Source: a phage | Direction: 5' to 3' (one strand) | Sequence record: PX969468.1 | Length of the DNA: 64,000 nucleotides | In this document: positions 2,668 through 62,411 of the stretch, one piece after another | Position numbering within the stretch: position 1 is the first letter of the stretch | Layout: each line of letters opens with the position of its first letter | Made by a program: the position numbers and the translations under genes | The notes under the pieces: generated by a model | Databases searched by the model: none | Told to the model about the DNA's origin: nothing | What the model saw: the letters and a program-made list of their open reading frames with translations, nothing else

Positions 2668-3000
2668 TCACACAGGTTTGATAATACCTTCACCGAATAA
2701 CTCTTCGTATCTAATCTTATCCGGATCCCACTCCTGGATAATTTCGAAGATAATATCCAACCCTGGGATAATCACTTCTCCGGTATCAAGCTTAGCAAGA
2801 ACAAAACCGGAAGGTTGAATGGTTTCCCAGTTACGGCGATCAGAATAAAATACTTCGAAAATATCACCAACCTCAATCCGTTTCTGTTGCTCAAGATGCT
2901 CAAGGTTCTCTTTCATACGGATGCAGCGGATTTTTCGTGCAGGCCATAGACCACCTGCATCACGTTCATTCAATTCTTTTACAGTGATCCGTATACCCAT
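2668..3000 (-). CDS. hypothetical protein
   Basis: Track ORF in the co-oriented minus-strand gene array. Confidence 0.5.
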   Translation of the reverse strand: MGIRITVKELNERDAGGLWPARKIRCIRMKENLEHLEQQKRIEVGDIFEVFYSDRRNWETIQPSGFVLAKLDTGEVIIPGLDIIFEIIQEWDPDKIRYEELFGEGIIKPV

Positions 3001-3027
3001 CTCAAATCTCCTTCATAGATAGTAAAA

Positions 3028-3047
3028 AGAGGGGCCCAAGCCCCTCT
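3028..3047 (-). terminator. rho-independent terminator-like hairpin (AGAGGGGC-CCAA-GCCCCTCT)
   Basis: Perfect 8-bp GC-rich stem with 4-nt loop, followed on the minus strand by a T-rich run, just downstream of CDS 3056..3361. Confidence 0.6.
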
Positions 3048-3055
3048 CTTTGTCA

Positions 3056-3361
3056 TTATTCTACAGAGCGTTTGAACAGAATGTCTGCCTCGGACATGTG
3101 CTCAACCTCTTCTTCGATTTTAGCTCGACGTTTTTCAGCCTCATAGCGAATATCGAACTCGGTAGCCACCAGAGATTTGATGAATTTAGGAGAATACAGG
3201 TGATCCTGCTTCTCAACGAGAATGATATCCTTAATGGCATCTTTCAGATCTTTAATCTGAAGTTGGAGTTCCACCAGTTCTTCGATTGTCTTGCGAAGGC
3301 GATCACGCTCTGCAGTGTCAGAAGGAAGGGAGGTGAACAGTTCAACTTTAGATTTAGCCAT
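3056..3361 (-). CDS. hypothetical coiled-coil protein
   Basis: Track ORF; charged heptad-like sequence. Confidence 0.5.
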   Translation of the reverse strand: MAKSKVELFTSLPSDTAERDRLRKTIEELVELQLQIKDLKDAIKDIILVEKQDHLYSPKFIKSLVATEFDIRYEAEKRRAKIEEEVEHMSEADILFKRSVE

Positions 3362-28525: not shown

Positions 28526-28984
28526 TTAGAAGTTTGTTTTTACACGTCCCTTTTCATCTACCTCATTGTTAGCTAAAAGCGTTACAAAGTCTGTGAAACG
28601 GACATGAAGAACTCTTTTCTTGTCAAGGTATCCTAAAGCCACCCCTGAAAAATTTAGCATCAAGGGGGCTAAAGAAGCTCTAGCACTGAAATGCTGTTGT
28701 TCTACTCTTCCTACACCCTTAGTGTAGGATGGGTTAAGATTGTAAGTTCTGAATCCCAGTTTTGTTGGAGCTTTAGAATTAAAAACAACTTTATAGCGTT
28801 TCTTACTCAACTTATGCTCCAGGATAAGAATTCCCTTATCACCCTTGATAAGTTGAAAATCTGTAAAGTGCTCTTTTAAGACGAAAGGTAGTGCCAGTCC
28901 CATAGCCTGGCCTCTTTGTACCGCTGTCTCACCAAAAGCTTTTGCATCAGTAAGTTCTTTGGTCAAGTCTATGCTTTTGATCAT
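28526..28984 (-). CDS. hypothetical protein (downstream of methyltransferase)
   Basis: Track ORF overlapping the 3' end of the methyltransferase gene. Confidence 0.45.
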   Translation of the reverse strand: MIKSIDLTKELTDAKAFGETAVQRGQAMGLALPFVLKEHFTDFQLIKGDKGILILEHKLSKKRYKVVFNSKAPTKLGFRTYNLNPSYTKGVGRVEQQHFSARASLAPLMLNFSGVALGYLDKKRVLHVRFTDFVTLLANNEVDEKGRVKTNF

Positions 28985-57266: not shown

Positions 57267-58643
57267 ATGCCATATTTAGATAAAGTGGTAGATGTTACAG
57301 TTAACCTCGGAACCCAGCCTATTGACACTGTAGGTTTCGAAACTCCCCTGTTCATCGCTATCCACAACAACTTTACTGAGCGAGCTCGCGTATATGCAGA
57401 GCTGGATCAGATGGTGGAAGATGGTTTCGCACAAGGCTCTGCAGCGTATGAGTTTGCAGCAAAAGCTTTTGGTGGTGTATTCCCTCCACAATACGTTATG
57501 ATCGGTAGACAGGCCAAAGAAAAGACCACTGTAGATTTTAAAGGTATTGCTGCCGCAGCTGATACCGATGTCGTAATGACTATTGCAAAAGGTAGCTACA
57601 ATACCTCTTTGATAGTCCCTATCTCTGGTGGAACAGCTGCAACTCAGATTGCAGAATCAATGAAGACTAAAATCGAAGCAGATGATAACTTGGACGATAT
57701 CACTGTAGAGGCTGCTGATGGTGTTATCACCATCACTGGTGACTGTACTGTTGGTTACCATACTGGTAACTATACAATCAAAAATATCGCCAATGCTGAA
57801 AAACCTTCTACAGTAGTTGATAAGATCAATGCTGAGCGTGACAATTGGTACTTCCTGTGCCATGAAGACCACACCGACATTGAAGCATGTGCTAAGTGGG
57901 CTCAGGCTAACTACAAGCTGCATGTCTACTCTACGGCAGAAGATGTGACTGGTAAAGATAATAACATCGCCACCAAACTGAAAGCTGCACAATATGACAG
58001 TGTCGGCATGTACGATCCTCGCGCAGATAAGGACTTCCCAGAGGGTGGTATCGTAGGCGCTATGGCATCCAACGATCCGTCTTACGGTGACAGCTTGCAT
58101 TTAAAACAGATGCCGGGTGTGATTGCACCATCTATGACTTTAACTCAGCGTATGGCGATTTGGGAAAACCACGTTAACTTCTACAGAATGATTAACGGTG
58201 TTGGTGCTTTCTGGGAAGGCAAGTGTGCTTCAGGTCAGTATGCAGACGCTATTCGTTTTGCACACTGGATCAAGTTCAGATCTGAAGAATCTATGTTTGG
58301 GTACATGCATCGTCGCTCCAACATGGGTTTAAGCATGAAGATGTCTGATGATGATCTTCCGGTTATCAAGTCTGTCCTGATGAACAACCCAATCAACACT
58401 GGCATTAAGAATGGTGCGATCCTGACAGGTTTTGACGAAGACAACAATGTGTTCTACGACCCGATCATCACAGTTCCTAAACGTGCAGAGATTCCAACCA
58501 ATCAGTTGGCTGCTCGTGTTCTGGAAGGTGTGAAAGTAGAACTGGTGTATAACAACGCCCTGCACTTCGTTCGTATCCGGATCAACGTCCTTCTGGACAA
58601 AGTTGGTTCTAAATCCACCAATGCTGTTGCAATGACTGAATAA
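57267..58643 (+). CDS. tail sheath protein (putative)
   Basis: 458 aa immediately followed by a 157-aa tube-sized protein, chaperone and tape measure (contractile-tail gene order); strong codon bias. Confidence 0.5.
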   Translation: MPYLDKVVDVTVNLGTQPIDTVGFETPLFIAIHNNFTERARVYAELDQMVEDGFAQGSAAYEFAAKAFGGVFPPQYVMIGRQAKEKTTVDFKGIAAAADTDVVMTIAKGSYNTSLIVPISGGTAATQIAESMKTKIEADDNLDDITVEAADGVITITGDCTVGYHTGNYTIKNIANAEKPSTVVDKINAERDNWYFLCHEDHTDIEACAKWAQANYKLHVYSTAEDVTGKDNNIATKLKAAQYDSVGMYDPRADKDFPEGGIVGAMASNDPSYGDSLHLKQMPGVIAPSMTLTQRMAIWENHVNFYRMINGVGAFWEGKCASGQYADAIRFAHWIKFRSEESMFGYMHRRSNMGLSMKMSDDDLPVIKSVLMNNPINTGIKNGAILTGFDEDNNVFYDPIITVPKRAEIPTNQLAARVLEGVKVELVYNNALHFVRIRINVLLDKVGSKSTNAVAMTE

Positions 58644-58653
58644 GGAAGACTAG

Positions 58654-59127
58654 ATGGAAACTCAAATTTTAACTCCTTATGCTTATGATCCTAAAAAGGT
58701 CAAACTGTATCTGATGCAGCAGCGTGTCACTGGCTTCGCTGCTGACACCAAGATCGTTGTTTCAAGAAACGAAGACAACATCTACCCTCACGTTGGTGTG
58801 GATGGCGAAATGTCTGCTGCCCTGTCTCGTAACCAATCTGGTGTTATGACTGTATCTTTGCAGAACACTTCTGTATGGAACGCTTACCTTTCTGACTGGC
58901 AGAAACAGGCATCGATTACTGGCCTGGTATTCTTCCCGGTTCTGCTGGAAGGTAGCCAGGGCCCTGGTATTTCCACAATTGGTTGGATCCAGAAACAGCC
59001 TGACCTGACTTACGGAACCGAAGTAGGTCAGCTGGACTGGGATATCGGTATTCTGGATGCATGGCTCAACCGTGATAACATCACTGGTGCTCTTACTGGC
59101 CTCGCAGGTCTTGCAGGTATTATCTAA
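58654..59127 (+). CDS. tail tube protein (putative)
   Basis: 157 aa between sheath and chaperone genes. Confidence 0.5.
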   Translation: METQILTPYAYDPKKVKLYLMQQRVTGFAADTKIVVSRNEDNIYPHVGVDGEMSAALSRNQSGVMTVSLQNTSVWNAYLSDWQKQASITGLVFFPVLLEGSQGPGISTIGWIQKQPDLTYGTEVGQLDWDIGILDAWLNRDNITGALTGLAGLAGII

Positions 59128-59145
59128 GGGCACACTTTAGCATAA

Positions 59146-59170
59146 GCCTCACCTTCGGGTGGGGCTTTTT
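59146..59170 (+). terminator. rho-independent terminator (8-bp stem, TTCG loop, T5)
   Basis: GCCTCACC-TTCG-GGTGGGGC followed by TTTTT. Confidence 0.7.
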
Positions 59171-59217
59171 GCTTTTATGGTTTTGACACACGTTCTTGAA
59201 TTGCTTGAAAGGTTAAA

Positions 59218-59246
59218 TTGACAATGCACCATAATCATGGTAAAAT
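59218..59246 (+). promoter_or_regulatory. sigma70-like promoter (TTGACA-17-TGgTAAAAT)
   Basis: Consensus -35 and extended -10 upstream of the chaperone gene. Confidence 0.55.
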
Positions 59247-59289
59247 ACACAAATATGGTGCACAACATGACTAATAAGGATGCTATAAA

Positions 59290-59763
59290 ATGGCTATAAA
59301 CTTTAGACCTACAACAGAGATTGATTTAGCAGGGCACAACTTTGTGATCACCCACTGGGGACCGATGAAAGCAATGAAAAACATGCCTAAAATCGGTAAG
59401 ATTGTGGCTGTCCCGCTAGGTGCTATCGGTGGATCTATTATCTCAGGCGGTCAGAACATGGCAGAGGTCCTTCCTACAGCTCTGGCTTACCTGTTCCAAG
59501 AACTTGATGATAACTCTATTGAAGAGCTATTTAAAATCTTGTTCGAAGATATTACCGTAGATGGTGTGGATAAGCTTAACCCGGATGTTGTGTTTGCAGG
59601 GCATCTGCTGGAGATGATTAAGCTGGCAGGTAAGGTTCTGGAGGTTAACTACGGCTGTTTTTTCACACAAGACGGTTTAGGAAGCCTTCTGGAGATGTTA
59701 CAGCAGATGGGTATGATTCAGCAGGTGAACAACCTGGATCAGACTCCGGAAGAGCAGGAATAA
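59290..59763 (+). CDS. tail assembly chaperone (short form)
   Basis: Located between tube and tape measure genes; contains a slippery heptamer and an overlapping -1 frame ORF. Confidence 0.6.
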   Translation: MAINFRPTTEIDLAGHNFVITHWGPMKAMKNMPKIGKIVAVPLGAIGGSIISGGQNMAEVLPTALAYLFQELDDNSIEELFKILFEDITVDGVDKLNPDVVFAGHLLEMIKLAGKVLEVNYGCFFTQDGLGSLLEMLQQMGMIQQVNNLDQTPEEQE

Positions 59764-60023
59764 GCAAGGTTGTTGTGAGGGCCAGTGAGTGGGCAGCCAA
59801 GAACAGTTCACTCAACTGGTTCGACTTTCTTTGGTGCAGGGTGCTCAAGAATTTCAAAGGGGAAAATTTTGAATCGCTAAATCTTGCAGATATGGCGTAT
59901 TTCCTGAAGCTCTGTGAGTATCTTGATATCGAAGAATTCCTAGATACCGTCCAAAACAGGGAAATGGAGCGGGAGCAGAAGGCTGCCGCAGCTGCTGCGA
60001 AAGCTAAGCGCAGGAGAGGATAA
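59290..60023 (+). CDS. tail assembly chaperone, predicted -1 frameshift-extended form (about 244 aa)
   Basis: Slippery T TTT TTC at 59658-59664; the -1 frame is open from 59649 to 60023 and covers track ORF 59775..60023. Confidence 0.5.
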
Positions 60024-60027
60024 TCTA

Positions 60028-60066
60028 AGGGCCGGATTCCTTTTCTGGGATCTGGCCCTTTTTATT
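60028..60066 (+). terminator. terminator-like hairpin plus T-run
   Basis: AGGGCCGGA...TCTGGCCCT followed by TTTTTATT. Confidence 0.5.
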
Positions 60067-60077
60067 ATGAGGAAACC

Positions 60078-62411
60078 ATGGCTACAAACAAAATAGTTGC
60101 CACAACAGTCAACAAGATTGGCTTTGAGATAGAGAACTCCTCCTACAAAAAAGCTGTAGAGAAAATTCGCAGTATTGGGAGGGAGTTCAGGAAACTGGGC
60201 GAGGATTTTAACTCAGCCAACCCCATGAGTAGATGGCAGGCGGTAGCTGTTAAAACCCAGCAGACAATGCAGAGGGTTGCCAGACAGCAATCTCAGGCAA
60301 ATGCTAAACTGCACAGAGAGAGCGTAGCACAGGCCAAGAAAGAGGCTGCAGTAAGGGCTGCAATAGAACGTAGGGAGAATGCGAGACGTAAACAAGCTGT
60401 AGGTAATCTTACCGCTAAAAATCCAGAAATGGCTAGGATGCGTAAGTTCTACCAGCAGCAAGCTAAAGAGGCCAAAAAGGCTGCCAAATCTGCACCAGTG
60501 TCTTACGGCGGTTATAAGCCACCTAAGGCAAGAGTTCTGGCTAATGCTAAAGCTTTCAAATATATCCCCGGTAACCCTAATATGGGTGGTGTGGCTTCCG
60601 ACCCTAATCTTGTGAAAGCTCAGACAGCTGCTATGAATCGTTATCATAGACAGCTAAGAAGGGACGGTAAAGCTGGTATGGATAATAGGCTTATGTCGGA
60701 TCGTGAGGCAAGAAGAACCCACCTCTACAACTCCGCGATAAGACTTTCTGCCAAGTATGGTGCCGGATTCCGTGGAAGCTTGCCAGGATACTCAGAGTTA
60801 GAGTCCAGGTTTGCTCGCGGGGAGATGAAAAAGTCAACCTTTAACGCCCACCTGTCAGCGCTGCAGTCTGGATTTAAAAGTGCCACCAGCCAAACGCTTA
60901 CACTAGGCGATGCCATGAGAGACTTACGTAGATCTGTTATTAATGCAACAGCTGCGTATACAGCTTTTTCTGGATTTGCTGCGGTTAACAGATCCGGTCA
61001 CATGATGGAGGGGGCAAGTGCTGCTCTTACTGCTGTTACTGGAGATCCAAACAAAGCCAACAGTGAGGTTGCGTTTGTCCAGCAAGAGGCTATGCGTCTT
61101 GGTTTTGATCTCAAATCTGGTCTTCAAGGTTACGCCCAAATGTCGGTAAACGCCAAAAACCAGATGACAAACCAGGAAGTGCATGAGCTGTTTTCTGCAT
61201 ATTCCCAGTATGCTGCTGCTTATGGTGCTGATGAGGTAAAATACCAGCGCGGTATTATGGCAATCCAACAGATGCTCGGTAAGGGACAAGTAATGTCCGA
61301 AGAGCTGAAGCAACAACTCGCTGAAGCATTGCCTGGTGCATATGAACCTTTTATCAAGGCCACCAAAGAGGCTTTTGGTCTTTCTGAACTCTCCATGGAT
61401 CAGTTCATGGACATGATGAAGAAAGGTGAGGTTAAAACAGCCAAGATCATGAAGTATGTAGCTAAGTACATGAACGAGGCATCTGCAGCTGGTTATGAAA
61501 GAATGCAGAAGTCTAACGTGCTGGCAGAAAACAGACTGAAAACCTTCATCGAACTGACTCGTCAGAAACTGTTCACCCGTTGGTCTGACGAACTAACAGA
61601 GTTCTATTATACACTAATCCGCACTGGTGAGACTCTGCAATTTGTGTGGGATGCCTCTGGTGATTTTGTTAGCGGGTTTGTGAGAGGCCTTAACTGGGTA
61701 GTTGGTGAACTAAACAATACTATAGTTAAGATCCGCATGTTTTTCCTTGAATGGGGTATTAAATGGGGATTCATAACAGCTAAGACGAAGGAATATTCTG
61801 AAGAGCTTCATGACACCTTTAGCTATGCTAAATGGGCAGGGTTTGCTGCTGCCATCATGCTGGTCGTCAACGCCCTAACAAAAGGTTTTGTCATGGCATC
61901 TATGCTTGTAAAAACCTTTAAATTCCTTAATTCTCTAAGAGGTGCAGCTGGAGCAGCAGGTGCAGCTACTGCAGAAGGATCTGGTGGTGGCGCGGCAGGA
62001 AAAGGTGGAGGTGGCCTCAAGACACCTGGTGGTAAAGTTGGTCTGCTTGGCAAGCTGGGCATTATCGGTACAATATTAAGCGCCGGGGAATTATTTAATG
62101 ACCGTTTCAACCCGCTGAGTGAAAGAAATCAGCAACTGGATACTATCAGCGATATGATTCGCAAAGATATCATATCGGGAGGTAACGGGTTTGTTAATCC
62201 TTTGGACACCTTGCCGGGTGGGACTCTTCCGTTGCCAGGTGGTCCTGGTTTTGCTTCTCAATTAAGAACTATGGAAATGCTACCTTTAGAGATCAGTGAT
62301 GGGAAAATCACGCTTTCCATAGATGAGGGCGAGTTTAGCAAAATACTTGATGCAAAACTTGAGTGGGAGAACAGTAAAGATATCAACTTCATGTCTACCG
62401 ACCTTTGGTAG
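60078..62411 (+). CDS. tail tape measure protein
   Basis: 777 aa, Ala/Gln-rich helical N-terminus, Gly-rich tract (GAAGAAGAATAEGSGGGAAGKGGGG), directly after the chaperone pair. Confidence 0.7.
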   Translation: MATNKIVATTVNKIGFEIENSSYKKAVEKIRSIGREFRKLGEDFNSANPMSRWQAVAVKTQQTMQRVARQQSQANAKLHRESVAQAKKEAAVRAAIERRENARRKQAVGNLTAKNPEMARMRKFYQQQAKEAKKAAKSAPVSYGGYKPPKARVLANAKAFKYIPGNPNMGGVASDPNLVKAQTAAMNRYHRQLRRDGKAGMDNRLMSDREARRTHLYNSAIRLSAKYGAGFRGSLPGYSELESRFARGEMKKSTFNAHLSALQSGFKSATSQTLTLGDAMRDLRRSVINATAAYTAFSGFAAVNRSGHMMEGASAALTAVTGDPNKANSEVAFVQQEAMRLGFDLKSGLQGYAQMSVNAKNQMTNQEVHELFSAYSQYAAAYGADEVKYQRGIMAIQQMLGKGQVMSEELKQQLAEALPGAYEPFIKATKEAFGLSELSMDQFMDMMKKGEVKTAKIMKYVAKYMNEASAAGYERMQKSNVLAENRLKTFIELTRQKLFTRWSDELTEFYYTLIRTGETLQFVWDASGDFVSGFVRGLNWVVGELNNTIVKIRMFFLEWGIKWGFITAKTKEYSEELHDTFSYAKWAGFAAAIMLVVNALTKGFVMASMLVKTFKFLNSLRGAAGAAGAATAEGSGGGAAGKGGGGLKTPGGKVGLLGKLGIIGTILSAGELFNDRFNPLSERNQQLDTISDMIRKDIISGGNGFVNPLDTLPGGTLPLPGGPGFASQLRTMEMLPLEISDGKITLSIDEGEFSKILDAKLEWENSKDINFMSTDLW

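What the first reader, a model, noticed from the sequence alone, without database searches (positions are those of the whole stretch)
59649..60023. Programmed -1 frameshift in the tail assembly chaperone (slippery TTTTTTC)
The heptamer T TTT TTC at 59658-59664 lies where the -1 frame opens (from 59649) and runs 119 codons past the 0-frame stop. This is the conserved G/GT-type arrangement upstream of the tape measure gene.
Basis: partly seen in the sequence, partly recalled or inferred. Interest (0 to 1): 0.5.

Follow-up and report, generated by a model that had tools for sequence, protein, structure and literature searches.

The report
Tail chaperone -1 frameshift, rV5-like phage
This is the usual programmed -1 ribosomal frameshift that lets a phage make a short and a long tail-assembly chaperone from one gene; it is real and strongly conserved, but public records of this phage group annotate it as two separate genes.

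Summary
The window is an rV5-like E. coli myophage (Vequintavirus, 98-99% identical to published genomes). The coordinates hold. T_TTT_TTC (59658-59664) is in the correct 0-frame phase (TGT TTT TTC) in a 157-aa tail assembly chaperone gene (59290-59763; Pfam Phage_TAC_15). The -1 frame opens at 59649 and stops at 60021-60023, just before the tape measure gene (60078-62411). One count is wrong: 119 codons run from the slip site, and only 86 lie past the 0-frame stop.

In 55 of 55 related loci (45 distinct), the -1 frame stays open 74-98 codons past the chaperone stop. An in-phase slippery heptamer lies in the overlap at the same motif (NYGCFF). The heptamer differs between clades (T_TTT_TTC, C_CCT_TTT, G_GGA_AAG, G_GGA_AAC; A_AAT_TTT in a Vibrio phage). 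Synonymous sites are frozen around the site. Conserved -1-frame residues precede any possible start codon, and in some genera the first start codon falls two thirds into the downstream domain.

No conserved downstream RNA structure was found. An SD-like GGAGG lies 13 nt upstream.

Verdict: interpretation supported, by comparative evidence only. It is a new, unannotated member of the known lambda G/GT kind. The slip site lies unusually far (32 codons) from the stop. Interest is low to moderate.

The parts
57267..58643 (+). Tail sheath gene (context)
   Evidence: phrog_205 tail sheath, 3e-117; annotated as tail sheath in related records.
58654..59127 (+). Tail tube gene (context; the gene upstream of the chaperone)
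   Evidence: Pfam KPP10_Orf10 7e-09 and phrog_280 2e-41. Annotated as tail tube protein in OR062943. rV5 gp52 was identified as the tube protein by virion mass spectrometry (PMC3606486).
59144..59177 (+). Intrinsic-terminator-like hairpin plus T run after the tube gene
   Evidence: 10-bp stem with 6 GC pairs, then a T tail. A terminator is annotated at the same place in phage Murica.
59218..59246 (+). Near-consensus sigma-70 promoter-like site (TTGACA-17-TAAAAT with TG) upstream of the chaperone gene
   Evidence: 11 of 12 matches with an extended -10 TG. This is a consensus match only; function is not shown.
59290..59763 (+). Chaperone ORF 'G' (0 frame, 157 aa), the short and presumably major product
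   Evidence: Pfam Phage_TAC_15 2.3e-23 (83.6 bits, cut-off 22), covering residues 15-129. phrog_3840 tail assembly chaperone 5.4e-69.
59640..59644 (+). Internal Shine-Dalgarno-like GGAGG, 13 nt 5' of the heptamer; candidate upstream stimulator
   Evidence: Sequence. An SD-like core lies 13-14 nt upstream of the heptamer in 29 of 45 distinct related loci, against 9.8% at other positions of the same genes. It sits on conserved Leu-Glu-Val codons and is absent in several clades, so a stimulatory role is inferred, not shown.
59658..59664 (+). Slippery heptamer T_TTT_TTC (0-frame codons TGT TTT TTC, i.e. Cys123 Phe124 Phe125)
   Evidence: Conserved in phase at the homologous NYGCFF motif in most of 55 related loci and replaced by other slippery heptamers in others. 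U_UU.U_UU.C is among the efficient -1 motifs measured in E. coli (PMC4066793).
59649..60023 (+). Open -1 frame (TAA at 59646-59648 before it; TAA at 60021-60023 closes it)
59664..60020 (+). The 119 codons read after the shift: an RFR motif, a Ser/Gly/Asp/Pro-rich linker, then a conserved about 80-aa 'T' domain
   Evidence: Alignments. tblastn of the T part finds 280 phage records. phrog_10409 9.6e-51, function unknown.
59665..59763 (+). Dual-coding overlap: the 0 frame encodes the G-only C-terminal tail (32 aa), the -1 frame encodes RFR plus the linker
   Evidence: Codon identity among pairs with the same amino acid is 0.40 upstream. It peaks at 0.89 in the 9-column window spanning the site and is 0.68 over the next 10 codons. 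GGTTT at 59674-59678 is invariant in 11 aligned Vequintavirinae sequences.
59775..60023 (+). The 82-aa GTG ORF that public records annotate as a separate hypothetical protein
   Evidence: Only a weak AAGG precedes it. Conserved residues (ISKVV) lie upstream of it, and the start is not conserved in relatives.
60027..60070 (+). Intrinsic-terminator-like hairpin plus T run directly after the -1-frame stop
   Evidence: 14-bp stem with 8 GC pairs. A terminator is annotated in phage Murica.
60078..62411 (+). Tape measure protein gene (context; the gene downstream of the chaperone)
   Evidence: Pfam TMP_3 3.7e-18; phrog_5255 with E-value 0.

Best explanation
The locus 59290-60023 is one tail-assembly-chaperone gene that gives two proteins.

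Most ribosomes read the 0 frame to the TAA at 59761-59763 and make the 157-aa chaperone, equivalent to lambda gpG. A minority slip back one base. This happens when tRNA-Phe molecules occupy UUU (59659-59661, P site) and UUC (59662-59664, A site), and both re-pair with UUU in the -1 frame. The next codon read is CAC (59664-59666), and translation continues to the TAA at 60021-60023. The result is a 244-aa fusion with junction ...NYGCFF|HTRRFRKPSG...

The fusion keeps the chaperone domain (residues 1-125, which is where the Pfam TAC domain ends). It replaces the G-only 32-residue tail with a flexible Ser/Gly/Asp/Pro-rich linker and a conserved about 80-residue T domain.

By analogy with lambda gpG/gpGT, the shared N-terminal domain coats the tape measure protein. 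The T domain recruits the tail tube protein, so that the tube polymerises around the tape measure, and neither form stays in the virion.

What is shown here: the sequence anatomy and its conservation. What is inferred: the slippage event itself, its frequency, and the roles of the two forms. Slippage probably relies on the heptamer alone, possibly helped by the SD-like GGAGG 13 nt upstream. No downstream structure is evident.
For: 1. Anatomy: the heptamer is in phase and lies 9 nt after the -1 frame opens.
2. Identity and position: a TAC family hit above the curated threshold, located between the tube and tape measure genes.
3. Conserved frame: in 55 of 55 related loci (13 GenBank phages from at least 7 clades with 28-55% chaperone identity, plus 41 IMG/VR contigs; 45 distinct sequences), the -1 frame is open 74-98 codons past the G stop. 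The +1 frame runs only 2-20 codons. An in-phase X_XXY_YYZ heptamer lies within the overlap, 18-35 codons before the G stop.
4. Heptamer turnover at one place: T_TTT_TTC; C_CCT_TTT plus T_TTT_TTC in tandem (phi92/phAPEC8 group); C_CCT_TTT (KLEP7); G_GGA_AAG (Barba16S); G_GGA_AAC (L034); A_AAT_TTT (Vibrio PWH3a-P1). All but G_GG.A_AA.C fall in motif classes rated efficient in E. coli (PMC4066793); that paper rates G_GG.A_AA.C as low efficiency, though it is used by IS elements.
5. Synonymous-site conservation peaks at the slip site (0.40 baseline, 0.89 at the peak).
6. -1-frame residues are conserved upstream of any start codon. The RF[RK] motif follows the slip site even where the nucleotides differ (CGG TTT AGG, GTC TTT CGC, CGG TTT AAG). 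'ISKVV' precedes the window's GTG.
7. In Mydovirus and Hena1-like loci, the first ATG/GTG/TTG in the -1 frame is 146 nt past the G stop. That is codon 80-84 of about 121-126, inside the conserved T domain.
8. The distance from the G stop to the conserved Trp codon of the T domain takes six different values, all in the same phase.
9. Annotators disagree on the start of the downstream ORF, giving 43, 59, 60, 71, 72, 82, 88 or 122 aa, one of them from a CTG next to the heptamer.
10. An intrinsic-terminator-like hairpin follows the -1-frame stop directly.
11. Sister clades (Vandenendeviridae, Andersonviridae) were independently predicted to use a -1 frameshift at a GTTTTT motif in the same gene (PMC12846349). 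The window has ctGTTTTTTCac.
Against: - There is no experimental evidence. No paper found in the held library reports the fusion protein for rV5-like phages.
- The rV5 virion proteome text does not mention gp50 or gp51, which is expected for chaperones and so uninformative.
- No stimulatory RNA structure was found downstream. The MFE z-score is -0.46 for 126 nt and +0.60 for 56 nt, and the consensus fold of 11 relatives has 0 pairs.
- The slip site is 32 codons from the G stop, unlike the lambda case where it is close to the end.
- The window has a GTG with a weak AAGG 5 nt upstream (59775), so some independent initiation cannot be excluded in this phage.
- No natural single-ORF G-T fusion was found in 1.84 billion representative proteins.
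- The related loci are not phylogenetically independent, so counts such as 55 of 55 overstate the number of independent tests (about 7-9 clades).
Confidence: 0.88

Rival explanations
1. Two separate genes, as annotated in GenBank. The 157-aa chaperone ends at 59763, and an independent 82-aa protein starts at GTG 59775 from its own weak ribosome-binding site. The heptamer and the frame relation would be incidental.
For: GTG at 59775 is preceded by AAGG 5 nt upstream. Gene callers and curators annotate it this way. PHROG families 10409, 8811 and 16039 are built from such short ORFs. Protein databases hold only short versions of 43-102 aa.
Against: - The start is not conserved. L017 (100% identical chaperone protein) lacks the AAGG. 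The L020-23 loci have TTG at that place. Mydovirus and L024 have no ATG/GTG/TTG until 146 nt past the G stop, inside the conserved domain.
- Residues conserved in the -1 frame (RFR, ISKVV) lie upstream of the GTG.
- The -1 phase and an uninterrupted -1 frame from an in-phase heptamer are kept in 55 of 55 loci despite many length changes.
- Synonymous-site freezing at the heptamer has no explanation under this model.
Confidence: 0.05
2. The same G-T fusion is made, but mainly by transcriptional slippage. RNA polymerase adds one extra U in the run of six T (59658-59663), giving a subpopulation of mRNAs in which the T part is in frame.
For: A homopolymeric T6 run is present and conserved in most relatives. 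Inserting one base in the mRNA gives the same frame change. [quoted passage not shown]
Against: - Relatives with G_GGA_AAG, G_GGA_AAC and A_AAT_TTT have no run longer than 3-4 bases at the site, yet keep the same arrangement.
- The T run is always in the exact phase needed for tandem tRNA re-pairing, which transcriptional slippage does not require.
- From general knowledge, not tested here: productive slippage by E. coli RNA polymerase needs runs of about 8-9 or more.
Confidence: 0.05
3. The -1 open frame is a chance or decaying ORF with no product, for example a remnant of a former gene.
For: There is no direct protein evidence. The T part has no curated family or known function.
Against: The T part is conserved at the protein level down to about 30% identity in 280 phage records and keeps an open frame of 74-98 codons in all 55 loci. 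Within the window it is the only heptamer-linked -1 extension of this length.
Confidence: 0.01

Closest known systems
Phage lambda gpG/gpGT tail assembly chaperone frameshift, and the conserved arrangement described by Xu, Hendrix and Duda 2004 (as summarised in PMC5009743)
   Same: Two overlapping ORFs lie between the major tail (tube) gene and the tape measure gene. The downstream ORF is in the -1 frame. There is an in-phase slippery heptamer, and no strong stimulatory structure is required. A short major product and a long minor fusion share the N-terminal chaperone domain. Distant relatives of the window (Barba16S) even use lambda's own heptamer, G_GGA_AAG.
   Different: The phage is a contractile-tailed myophage, not a siphophage. 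The heptamer is T_TTT_TTC. The slip site is 32 codons (18-35 in relatives) upstream of the G stop, so the short form has its own conserved C-terminal tail that the long form lacks, and about 100 nt are dual-coding. There is no detectable sequence similarity to lambda G or T, and no Pfam Phage_tail_T hit. The ratio and function are untested here.
Predicted -1 frameshift in the chaperone gene of Pakpunavirus Adele / Vandenendeviridae and of Andersonviridae (PMC12846349, Dec 2025)
   Same: The tail module type is the same (the window's tube protein matches Pfam KPP10_Orf10). That paper states these clades are related to Vequintavirinae. The downstream ORF is likewise routinely mis-annotated as a hypothetical protein. 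The -1 frame is uninterrupted in all genomes. A conserved GTTTTT motif lies at the site, and the window has GTTTTTTC.
   Different: That study did not report the frameshift for Vequintavirinae. In the one related genome I read (Acinetobacter phage Herod), GTTTTTTC sits in a different phase (0 frame GTT TTT TCC), so it is not a canonical X_XXY_YYZ heptamer. In the window and its relatives the heptamer is canonical and in phase.
Phage P2 E / E+E' (myophage chaperone frameshift; from my own knowledge. PMC5009743, notes only that P2-type efficiency is 2-3 fold higher than lambda's)
   Same: A contractile-tailed phage with the chaperone pair between the tube and tape measure genes. It uses a T-rich slippery run, recalled as T_TTT_TTG and not verified here.
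   Different: No sequence similarity was detected. In P2 the shift is near the end of E, as I recall. The sheath and tube families are different.
E. coli dnaX -1 frameshift (A_AAA_AAG with an upstream SD-like stimulator and a downstream hairpin; from general knowledge)
   Same: An internal SD-like element (GGAGG) lies 13 nt 5' of the heptamer, within the spacing range recalled (10-14 nt, from general knowledge, not verified here) as stimulating -1 shifts in E. coli.
   Different: There is no downstream hairpin. The SD-like element is absent in several clades. The outcome is an extension rather than a truncation. The stimulatory effect is untested.

Membership tests
G/GT-type tail assembly chaperone with programmed -1 frameshift | Gene pair lies between the major tail/tube protein gene and the tape measure protein gene | tested here: met
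   Tube gene 58654-59127, chaperone locus 59290-60023, tape measure gene 60078-62411.
G/GT-type tail assembly chaperone with programmed -1 frameshift | Downstream ORF overlaps the upstream ORF in the -1 frame and has no conserved initiation signal of its own | tested here: met
   The -1 relation holds in 55 of 55 loci. First possible starts are scattered and, in some genera, lie inside the conserved domain.
G/GT-type tail assembly chaperone with programmed -1 frameshift | Slippery X_XXY_YYZ heptamer in the 0-frame phase within the overlap | tested here: met
   T_TTT_TTC at 59658-59664. It is present in all 55 loci, with five heptamer types there and a sixth in a Vibrio phage.
G/GT-type tail assembly chaperone with programmed -1 frameshift | Evolutionary signature of recoding: the arrangement is kept while the protein sequences diverge, and synonymous variation is suppressed at the site | tested here: met
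G/GT-type tail assembly chaperone with programmed -1 frameshift | Two products, with the short form in large excess over the fusion, are actually made, and both are needed for tail assembly | not testable with these tools
   No proteomic or genetic data were found for rV5-like phages.
G/GT-type tail assembly chaperone with programmed -1 frameshift | Neither product is present in mature virions | tested here: inconclusive
   The text of the rV5 virion proteome paper names gp49, gp52 and gp53 but not gp50 or gp51. The supplementary tables held gave no match to the search terms.
Pfam PF21822 Phage_TAC_15 | Whole-protein score above the curated gathering threshold | tested here: met
   83.6 bits against a cut-off of 22, E = 2.3e-23. 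Residues 15-129 match model positions 2-125 of 127. The domain ends essentially at the slip site (residue 125).
Structure-stimulated -1 PRF (hairpin or pseudoknot 5-9 nt 3' of the heptamer) | Stable, conserved downstream RNA structure | tested here: not met
   z-scores of -0.46 and +0.60 in the window. The consensus fold of 11 relatives has 0 pairs. Only distant relatives phiA009 (z = -2.8) and KLEP7 (z = -2.0) show a hairpin.
SD-stimulated -1 PRF (dnaX type) | Anti-SD-complementary element about 10-14 nt 5' of the heptamer | tested here: inconclusive
   GGAGG is present 13 nt upstream. Such an element occurs in 29 of 45 loci against a 9.8% background. It lies on conserved codons, is absent in several clades, and its effect is untested.
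Transcriptional slippage | Long homopolymeric run (about 8-9 or more A/T) at the site in all members | tested here: not met
   The run is T6 in the window. It is 3-4 bases in Barba16S, L034 and PWH3a-P1.

The most novel reading that the evidence does not exclude
The slip site is set at the end of the chaperone domain, 18-35 codons before the stop, in every relative. The short and long forms therefore carry alternative, separately conserved C-terminal continuations: an amphipathic G-only tail, or RFR-linker-T. These are encoded by about 100 nt of dual-coding sequence. Shifting would be tuned by an upstream SD-like element and/or by the invariant GGTTT / nascent 'RFR' segment rather than by a 3' RNA structure. 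If the G-only tail has its own function, such as capping or oligomerisation that the fusion must lack, this would be a functional variant of the G/GT scheme rather than a simple extension.
Probability: 0.2. Interest if true: 0.45.

Novelty: new member of a known kind. Interest (0 to 1): 0.25.

Why it matters
The practical consequence is for annotation. More than 100 Vequintavirus genomes, and several hundred related genomes (Seunavirus, Avunavirus, Mydovirus, Certrevirus, phi92-like and phAPEC8-like phages, Aeromonas and Rheinheimera phages), carry this locus. In the 18 annotated records inspected here, none carries a ribosomal-slippage join. It appears as a chaperone plus a 'hypothetical protein' of arbitrary length (43-122 aa), or with the second part left unannotated. 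Annotating one gene with ribosomal slippage would remove a spurious protein family (phrog_10409, 8811, 16039) and give the true 244-aa product.

For biology, it extends the G/GT rule to a large clade of therapeutic-candidate myophages. It also gives a clean natural series of interchangeable slippery heptamers at one homologous site. The unusually long dual-coding overlap could be used to study how much of the shift signal lies in the heptamer alone. It does not change any general concept.

Tried and rejected
- Downstream stimulatory structure. I folded 126 nt and 56 nt after the heptamer and computed a consensus fold of 11 relatives. Nothing exceeded shuffled controls and there was no consensus pair.
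- Natural single-ORF G-T fusions. The word-indexed search and the exhaustive HMMER search of 1.84 billion representatives returned only short ORFs (43-102 aa) and a few long repetitive proteins matching a 40-residue stretch. No fusion was found.
- Solved structures. A profile of the chaperone against PDB sequences gave nothing below E = 0.16.
- NCBIfam gave no family for either part.
- Literature. No paper in the held library links rV5, Vequintavirinae, phi92 or PVP-SE1 with a frameshift. Two candidate papers used 'frameshift' in unrelated senses.
- rV5 proteome supplements held no match for gp50 or gp51.
- Other slip sites in the overlap. No other in-phase X_XXY_YYZ heptamer exists between 59649 and 59763. 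By eye, the only other candidate is the T_TT.A tetramer at GGT TTA, which is not among the efficient tetramers in E. coli (PMC4066793).
- A +1 frameshift is rejected. The +1 frame closes after 8 codons in the window and 2-20 in relatives.
Full report
**1. What the window is**

The 5.3 kb around the finding is 98-99% identical over its full length to more than 100 published rV5-like E. coli myophages (genus Vequintavirus, subfamily Vequintavirinae). The best match is Escherichia phage 241Ecol014PP. The local gene order on the + strand is as follows:
- tail sheath, 57267-58643
- tail tube, 58654-59127
- a 157-aa ORF, 59290-59763
- an 82-aa GTG ORF, 59775-60023
- tape measure protein, 60078-62411

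**2. Check of the observation**

The sequence shows 0-frame codons ...AAC TAC GGC TGT TTT TTC ACA... The heptamer T_TTT_TTC at 59658-59664 is therefore in the X_XXY_YYZ phase. A TAA at 59646-59648 closes the -1 frame just before 59649. The -1 frame is then open to the TAA at 60021-60023, so every coordinate given is exact.

One count is wrong. The 119 codons are counted from the slip site (59664-60020), and only 86 of them lie past the 0-frame stop at 59761-59763. The predicted fusion is 125 + 119 = 244 aa, with junction ...VLEVNYGCFF|HTRRFRKPSG...

As an internal control I scanned the whole window. It has 105 ORFs of at least 100 aa carrying 58 in-phase heptamers. Only three of these let the -1 frame run beyond the 0-frame stop: by 86 codons here, and by 30 and 13 elsewhere. 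The +1 frame at this gene closes after 8 codons.

**3. Identity of the two parts**

The 157-aa ORF matches Pfam Phage_TAC_15 (E = 2.3e-23; 83.6 bits against a gathering cut-off of 22) and phrog_3840 'tail assembly chaperone' (5.4e-69). The Pfam match covers residues 15-129, so the domain ends essentially at the slip site, residue 125.

The -1-frame part matches only PHROG families of unknown function, which are built from the short annotated ORFs (phrog_10409, 9.6e-51). It has no Pfam or NCBIfam family.

**4. Comparative test**

tblastn found the chaperone in 491 phage records and the downstream part in 280. I fetched two sets of loci:
- 13 GenBank loci from distinct groups, with 28-55% chaperone identity to the window: PVP-SE1, Av-05, a Klebsiella Mydovirus-like phage, A7_1, PBES 02, F5M2A, KLEP7, phAPEC8, a phi92-like phage, phi1_175008, two Aeromonas Plateaulakevirus, and Rheinheimera Barba16S.
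- 41 IMG/VR loci.

In all 55 loci (45 distinct sequences), three things hold:
- The -1 frame is open for 74-98 codons past the chaperone stop.
- The +1 frame runs only 2-20 codons.
- At least one in-phase X_XXY_YYZ heptamer lies inside the overlap, 18-35 codons before the chaperone stop.

The heptamer sits at the homologous motif (L-E-V-N-Y-G-C-F-F and variants). It is not always the same heptamer:
- T_TTT_TTC in most loci
- C_CCT_TTT plus T_TTT_TTC in tandem in the phi92/phAPEC8 group
- C_CCT_TTT in KLEP7
- G_GGA_AAG (lambda's own heptamer) in Barba16S
- G_GGA_AAC in L034
- A_AAT_TTT in Vibrio phage PWH3a-P1, found through its tube protein

Replacement of one slippery sequence by another at a fixed place is what selection for slipperiness predicts. 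Selection for the encoded Phe-Phe would not predict it.

**5. Evidence that the -1 frame is read from the heptamer and not from its own start**

(a) Residues conserved in the -1 frame begin right after the slip site. An R-F-[RK] motif is kept even where the nucleotides differ: CGG TTT AGG in the window, GTC TTT CGC in Barba16S, CGG TTT AAG in L034. 'ISKVV' precedes the window's GTG.

(b) The first ATG/GTG/TTG in the -1 frame is scattered. In Mydovirus and Hena1-like loci it lies 146 nt beyond the chaperone stop. That is codon 80-84 of about 121-126, so about two thirds of the conserved T part could not be made by independent initiation. Accordingly, phage Mydo annotates only a 43-aa remnant.

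(c) In the window lineage the GTG at 59775 has only AAGG upstream. Locus L017, whose chaperone protein is 100% identical, lacks even that. The 70%-identical loci L020-23 have TTG there.

(d) Annotators disagree on the ORF. Lengths of 43, 59, 60, 71, 72, 82 and 88 aa are annotated. In phage JES-2013 it is 122 aa from a CTG at window position 59655, next to the heptamer.

(e) The distance from the chaperone stop to the conserved Trp codon of the T domain takes six values (53-107 nt), always in the same phase.

(f) Among sequence pairs below 85% protein identity, I measured the fraction of identical codons at positions with the same amino acid. It is 0.40 across the upstream gene. It peaks at 0.89 in the 9-column window covering C-F-F and the following codons, and is 0.68 over the next 10 codons. 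The pairs are not phylogenetically independent, so this is descriptive, but the peak is sharp and sits on the heptamer.

**6. Stimulatory elements**

No downstream structure is supported. The 126 nt after the heptamer fold no better than shuffles (z = -0.46), and the first 56 nt give z = +0.60. The consensus fold of 11 Vequintavirinae sequences has no pairs. Only distant relatives show a candidate hairpin: phiA009 (z = -2.8) and KLEP7 (z = -2.0).

The invariant GGTTT at 59674-59678 is fully explained by dual coding. It encodes Gly-Phe/Leu in the 0 frame and Arg-Phe in the -1 frame.

Upstream, GGAGG at 59640-59644 lies 13 nt before the heptamer. An SD-like core at 13-14 nt is present in 29 of 45 distinct loci, against 9.8% at other positions of the same genes. 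From general knowledge of dnaX, that spacing can stimulate -1 shifts in E. coli. However, the element lies on conserved Leu-Glu-Val codons and is missing in Mydovirus, Certrevirus, Aeromonas and Rheinheimera phages. I therefore rate it as a candidate only.

U_UU.U_UU.C belongs to the most efficient motif class measured in E. coli (H_HH.U_UU.Y). It shifts at more than 0.1% without any stimulator and is under-represented in E. coli genes (PMC4066793). A heptamer-only signal giving a low percentage is plausible, as in lambda.

**7. Mechanism proposed**

Tandem slippage occurs with two tRNA-Phe molecules, moving from UUU-UUC to UUU-UUU one base back. The next codon read is CAC. The short form (157 aa) keeps a 32-residue tail (TQDGLGSLLEMLQQMGMIQQVNNLDQTPEEQE) that is moderately conserved. 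The long form (244 aa) replaces this tail with RFR, a Ser/Gly/Asp/Pro-rich linker of variable length, and a conserved about 80-residue domain ending in a basic tail.

The functions are inferred by analogy with lambda gpG/gpGT (PMC5009743). The shared domain binds the tape measure protein, the T domain recruits the tube protein, and both forms leave the finished tail.

The transcription context fits one unit. There is a terminator-like hairpin after the tube gene (59144-59167) and a near-consensus promoter-like site (59218-59246). A second terminator-like hairpin (60027-60060) starts 4 nt after the -1-frame stop.

**8. Rivals**

- Independent initiation at the GTG is contradicted by points 5a-f. 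It may still add a little free T protein in this particular phage.
- Transcriptional slippage on the T6 run would give the same protein. The relatives with G_GGA_AAG, G_GGA_AAC and A_AAT_TTT have no homopolymer at the site. The strict codon phase of the T run is needed only for tRNA re-pairing.
- A chance ORF is excluded by protein-level conservation in 280 records.

**9. Comparison with what is known**

This is the lambda G/GT arrangement in a myophage. The nearest published case is the in-silico prediction for Pakpunavirus Adele, 159 Vandenendeviridae genomes and 231 Andersonviridae genomes. That study found a conserved GTTTTT motif and the same mis-annotation of the downstream ORF (PMC12846349, Dec 2025). 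It notes the relatedness of those clades to Vequintavirinae but does not report the frameshift for them.

I found no paper in the held library that does so. None of the annotated GenBank records I inspected carries a ribosomal-slippage join.

Differences from the textbook case:
- The slip site is far from the stop (32 codons; 18-35 in relatives), giving a long dual-coding overlap and a G-only tail.
- The heptamer is T_TTT_TTC.
- There is a possible upstream SD-like element, and no 3' structure.

**10. Verdict**

It is an unannotated new member of a well-known kind and matters mainly for annotation. Interest is 0.25.

Noticed in passing
window 59128-59289 and 60024-60077: The chaperone gene is bracketed by intrinsic-terminator-like hairpins (59144-59167 and 60027-60060). 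It also has its own near-consensus sigma-70 promoter-like site with an extended -10 (TTGACA-17-TAAAAT, 59218-59246). It may therefore be transcribed partly as its own unit inside the tail operon, which could be a further way to set chaperone dosage.
   Followed up: partly
L060:5130-5160 (Acinetobacter phage Herod, MW316732): The same nucleotide motif GTTTTTTC occurs at the homologous place, but one base out of phase. The 0 frame reads GAT GTT TTT TCC, and it is the -1 frame that reads TGT TTT TTC (Cys-Phe-Phe) followed by RFRR. There is no canonical in-phase heptamer, so either the shift works differently there (P-site-only slip on T_TTT_T) or the record has an indel.
   Followed up: partly
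L058:2609-3528 (deep-sea thermophilic phage D6E, NC_019544): An unannotated 920-nt gap lies between the tube and tape measure genes. It holds an 88-codon open frame (2619-2885) overlapped by a 69-codon open frame (2866-3075) in the +1 (or -2) relation. This may be a chaperone pair using a different shift direction.
   Followed up: no
L012:1249-1304 (Aeromonas phage phiA009) and L009:1276-1331 (KLEP7): Unlike the window, these distant relatives have a stable hairpin starting 6-11 nt after the heptamer (z = -2.8 and -2.0 against shuffles). The stimulatory element may differ between clades.
   Followed up: partly
L061:866-1234 (Escherichia phage JES-2013, NC_022323) = window 59655-60023: This RefSeq record annotates the whole -1 frame as a 122-aa protein starting at a CTG two codons after the -1 frame opens. 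That start overlaps the heptamer. It is an annotation artefact that in effect marks the frameshift site.
   Followed up: yes
hits H26, H33, H39, H87, H103: About 20 records named 'Campylobacter phage' with host Campylobacter jejuni (MG0656xx) are 98-100% identical in this locus to E. coli rV5-like phages. The host label looks doubtful.
   Followed up: no
window 28526-28984 (- strand), heptamer at about 28547-28553: A 152-aa ORF of unknown function (phrog_9938, 1e-88) has an in-phase A_AAG_GGA heptamer 6 codons before its stop, with a 30-codon -1 extension. A_AA.G_GG.A is a high-efficiency motif in E. coli (PMC4066793). The extension runs across the start of the next gene in another frame, so it is probably chance.
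   Followed up: partly
P0010, P0012, P0013, P0018, P0019: Residues about 46-88 of the T part (the WFDFLW...FESL segment) match 4-8 repeated stretches in long proteins of 737-1311 aa in the representative library (E = 3.5e-06 to 8e-04). The nature of these proteins is unknown.
   Followed up: no
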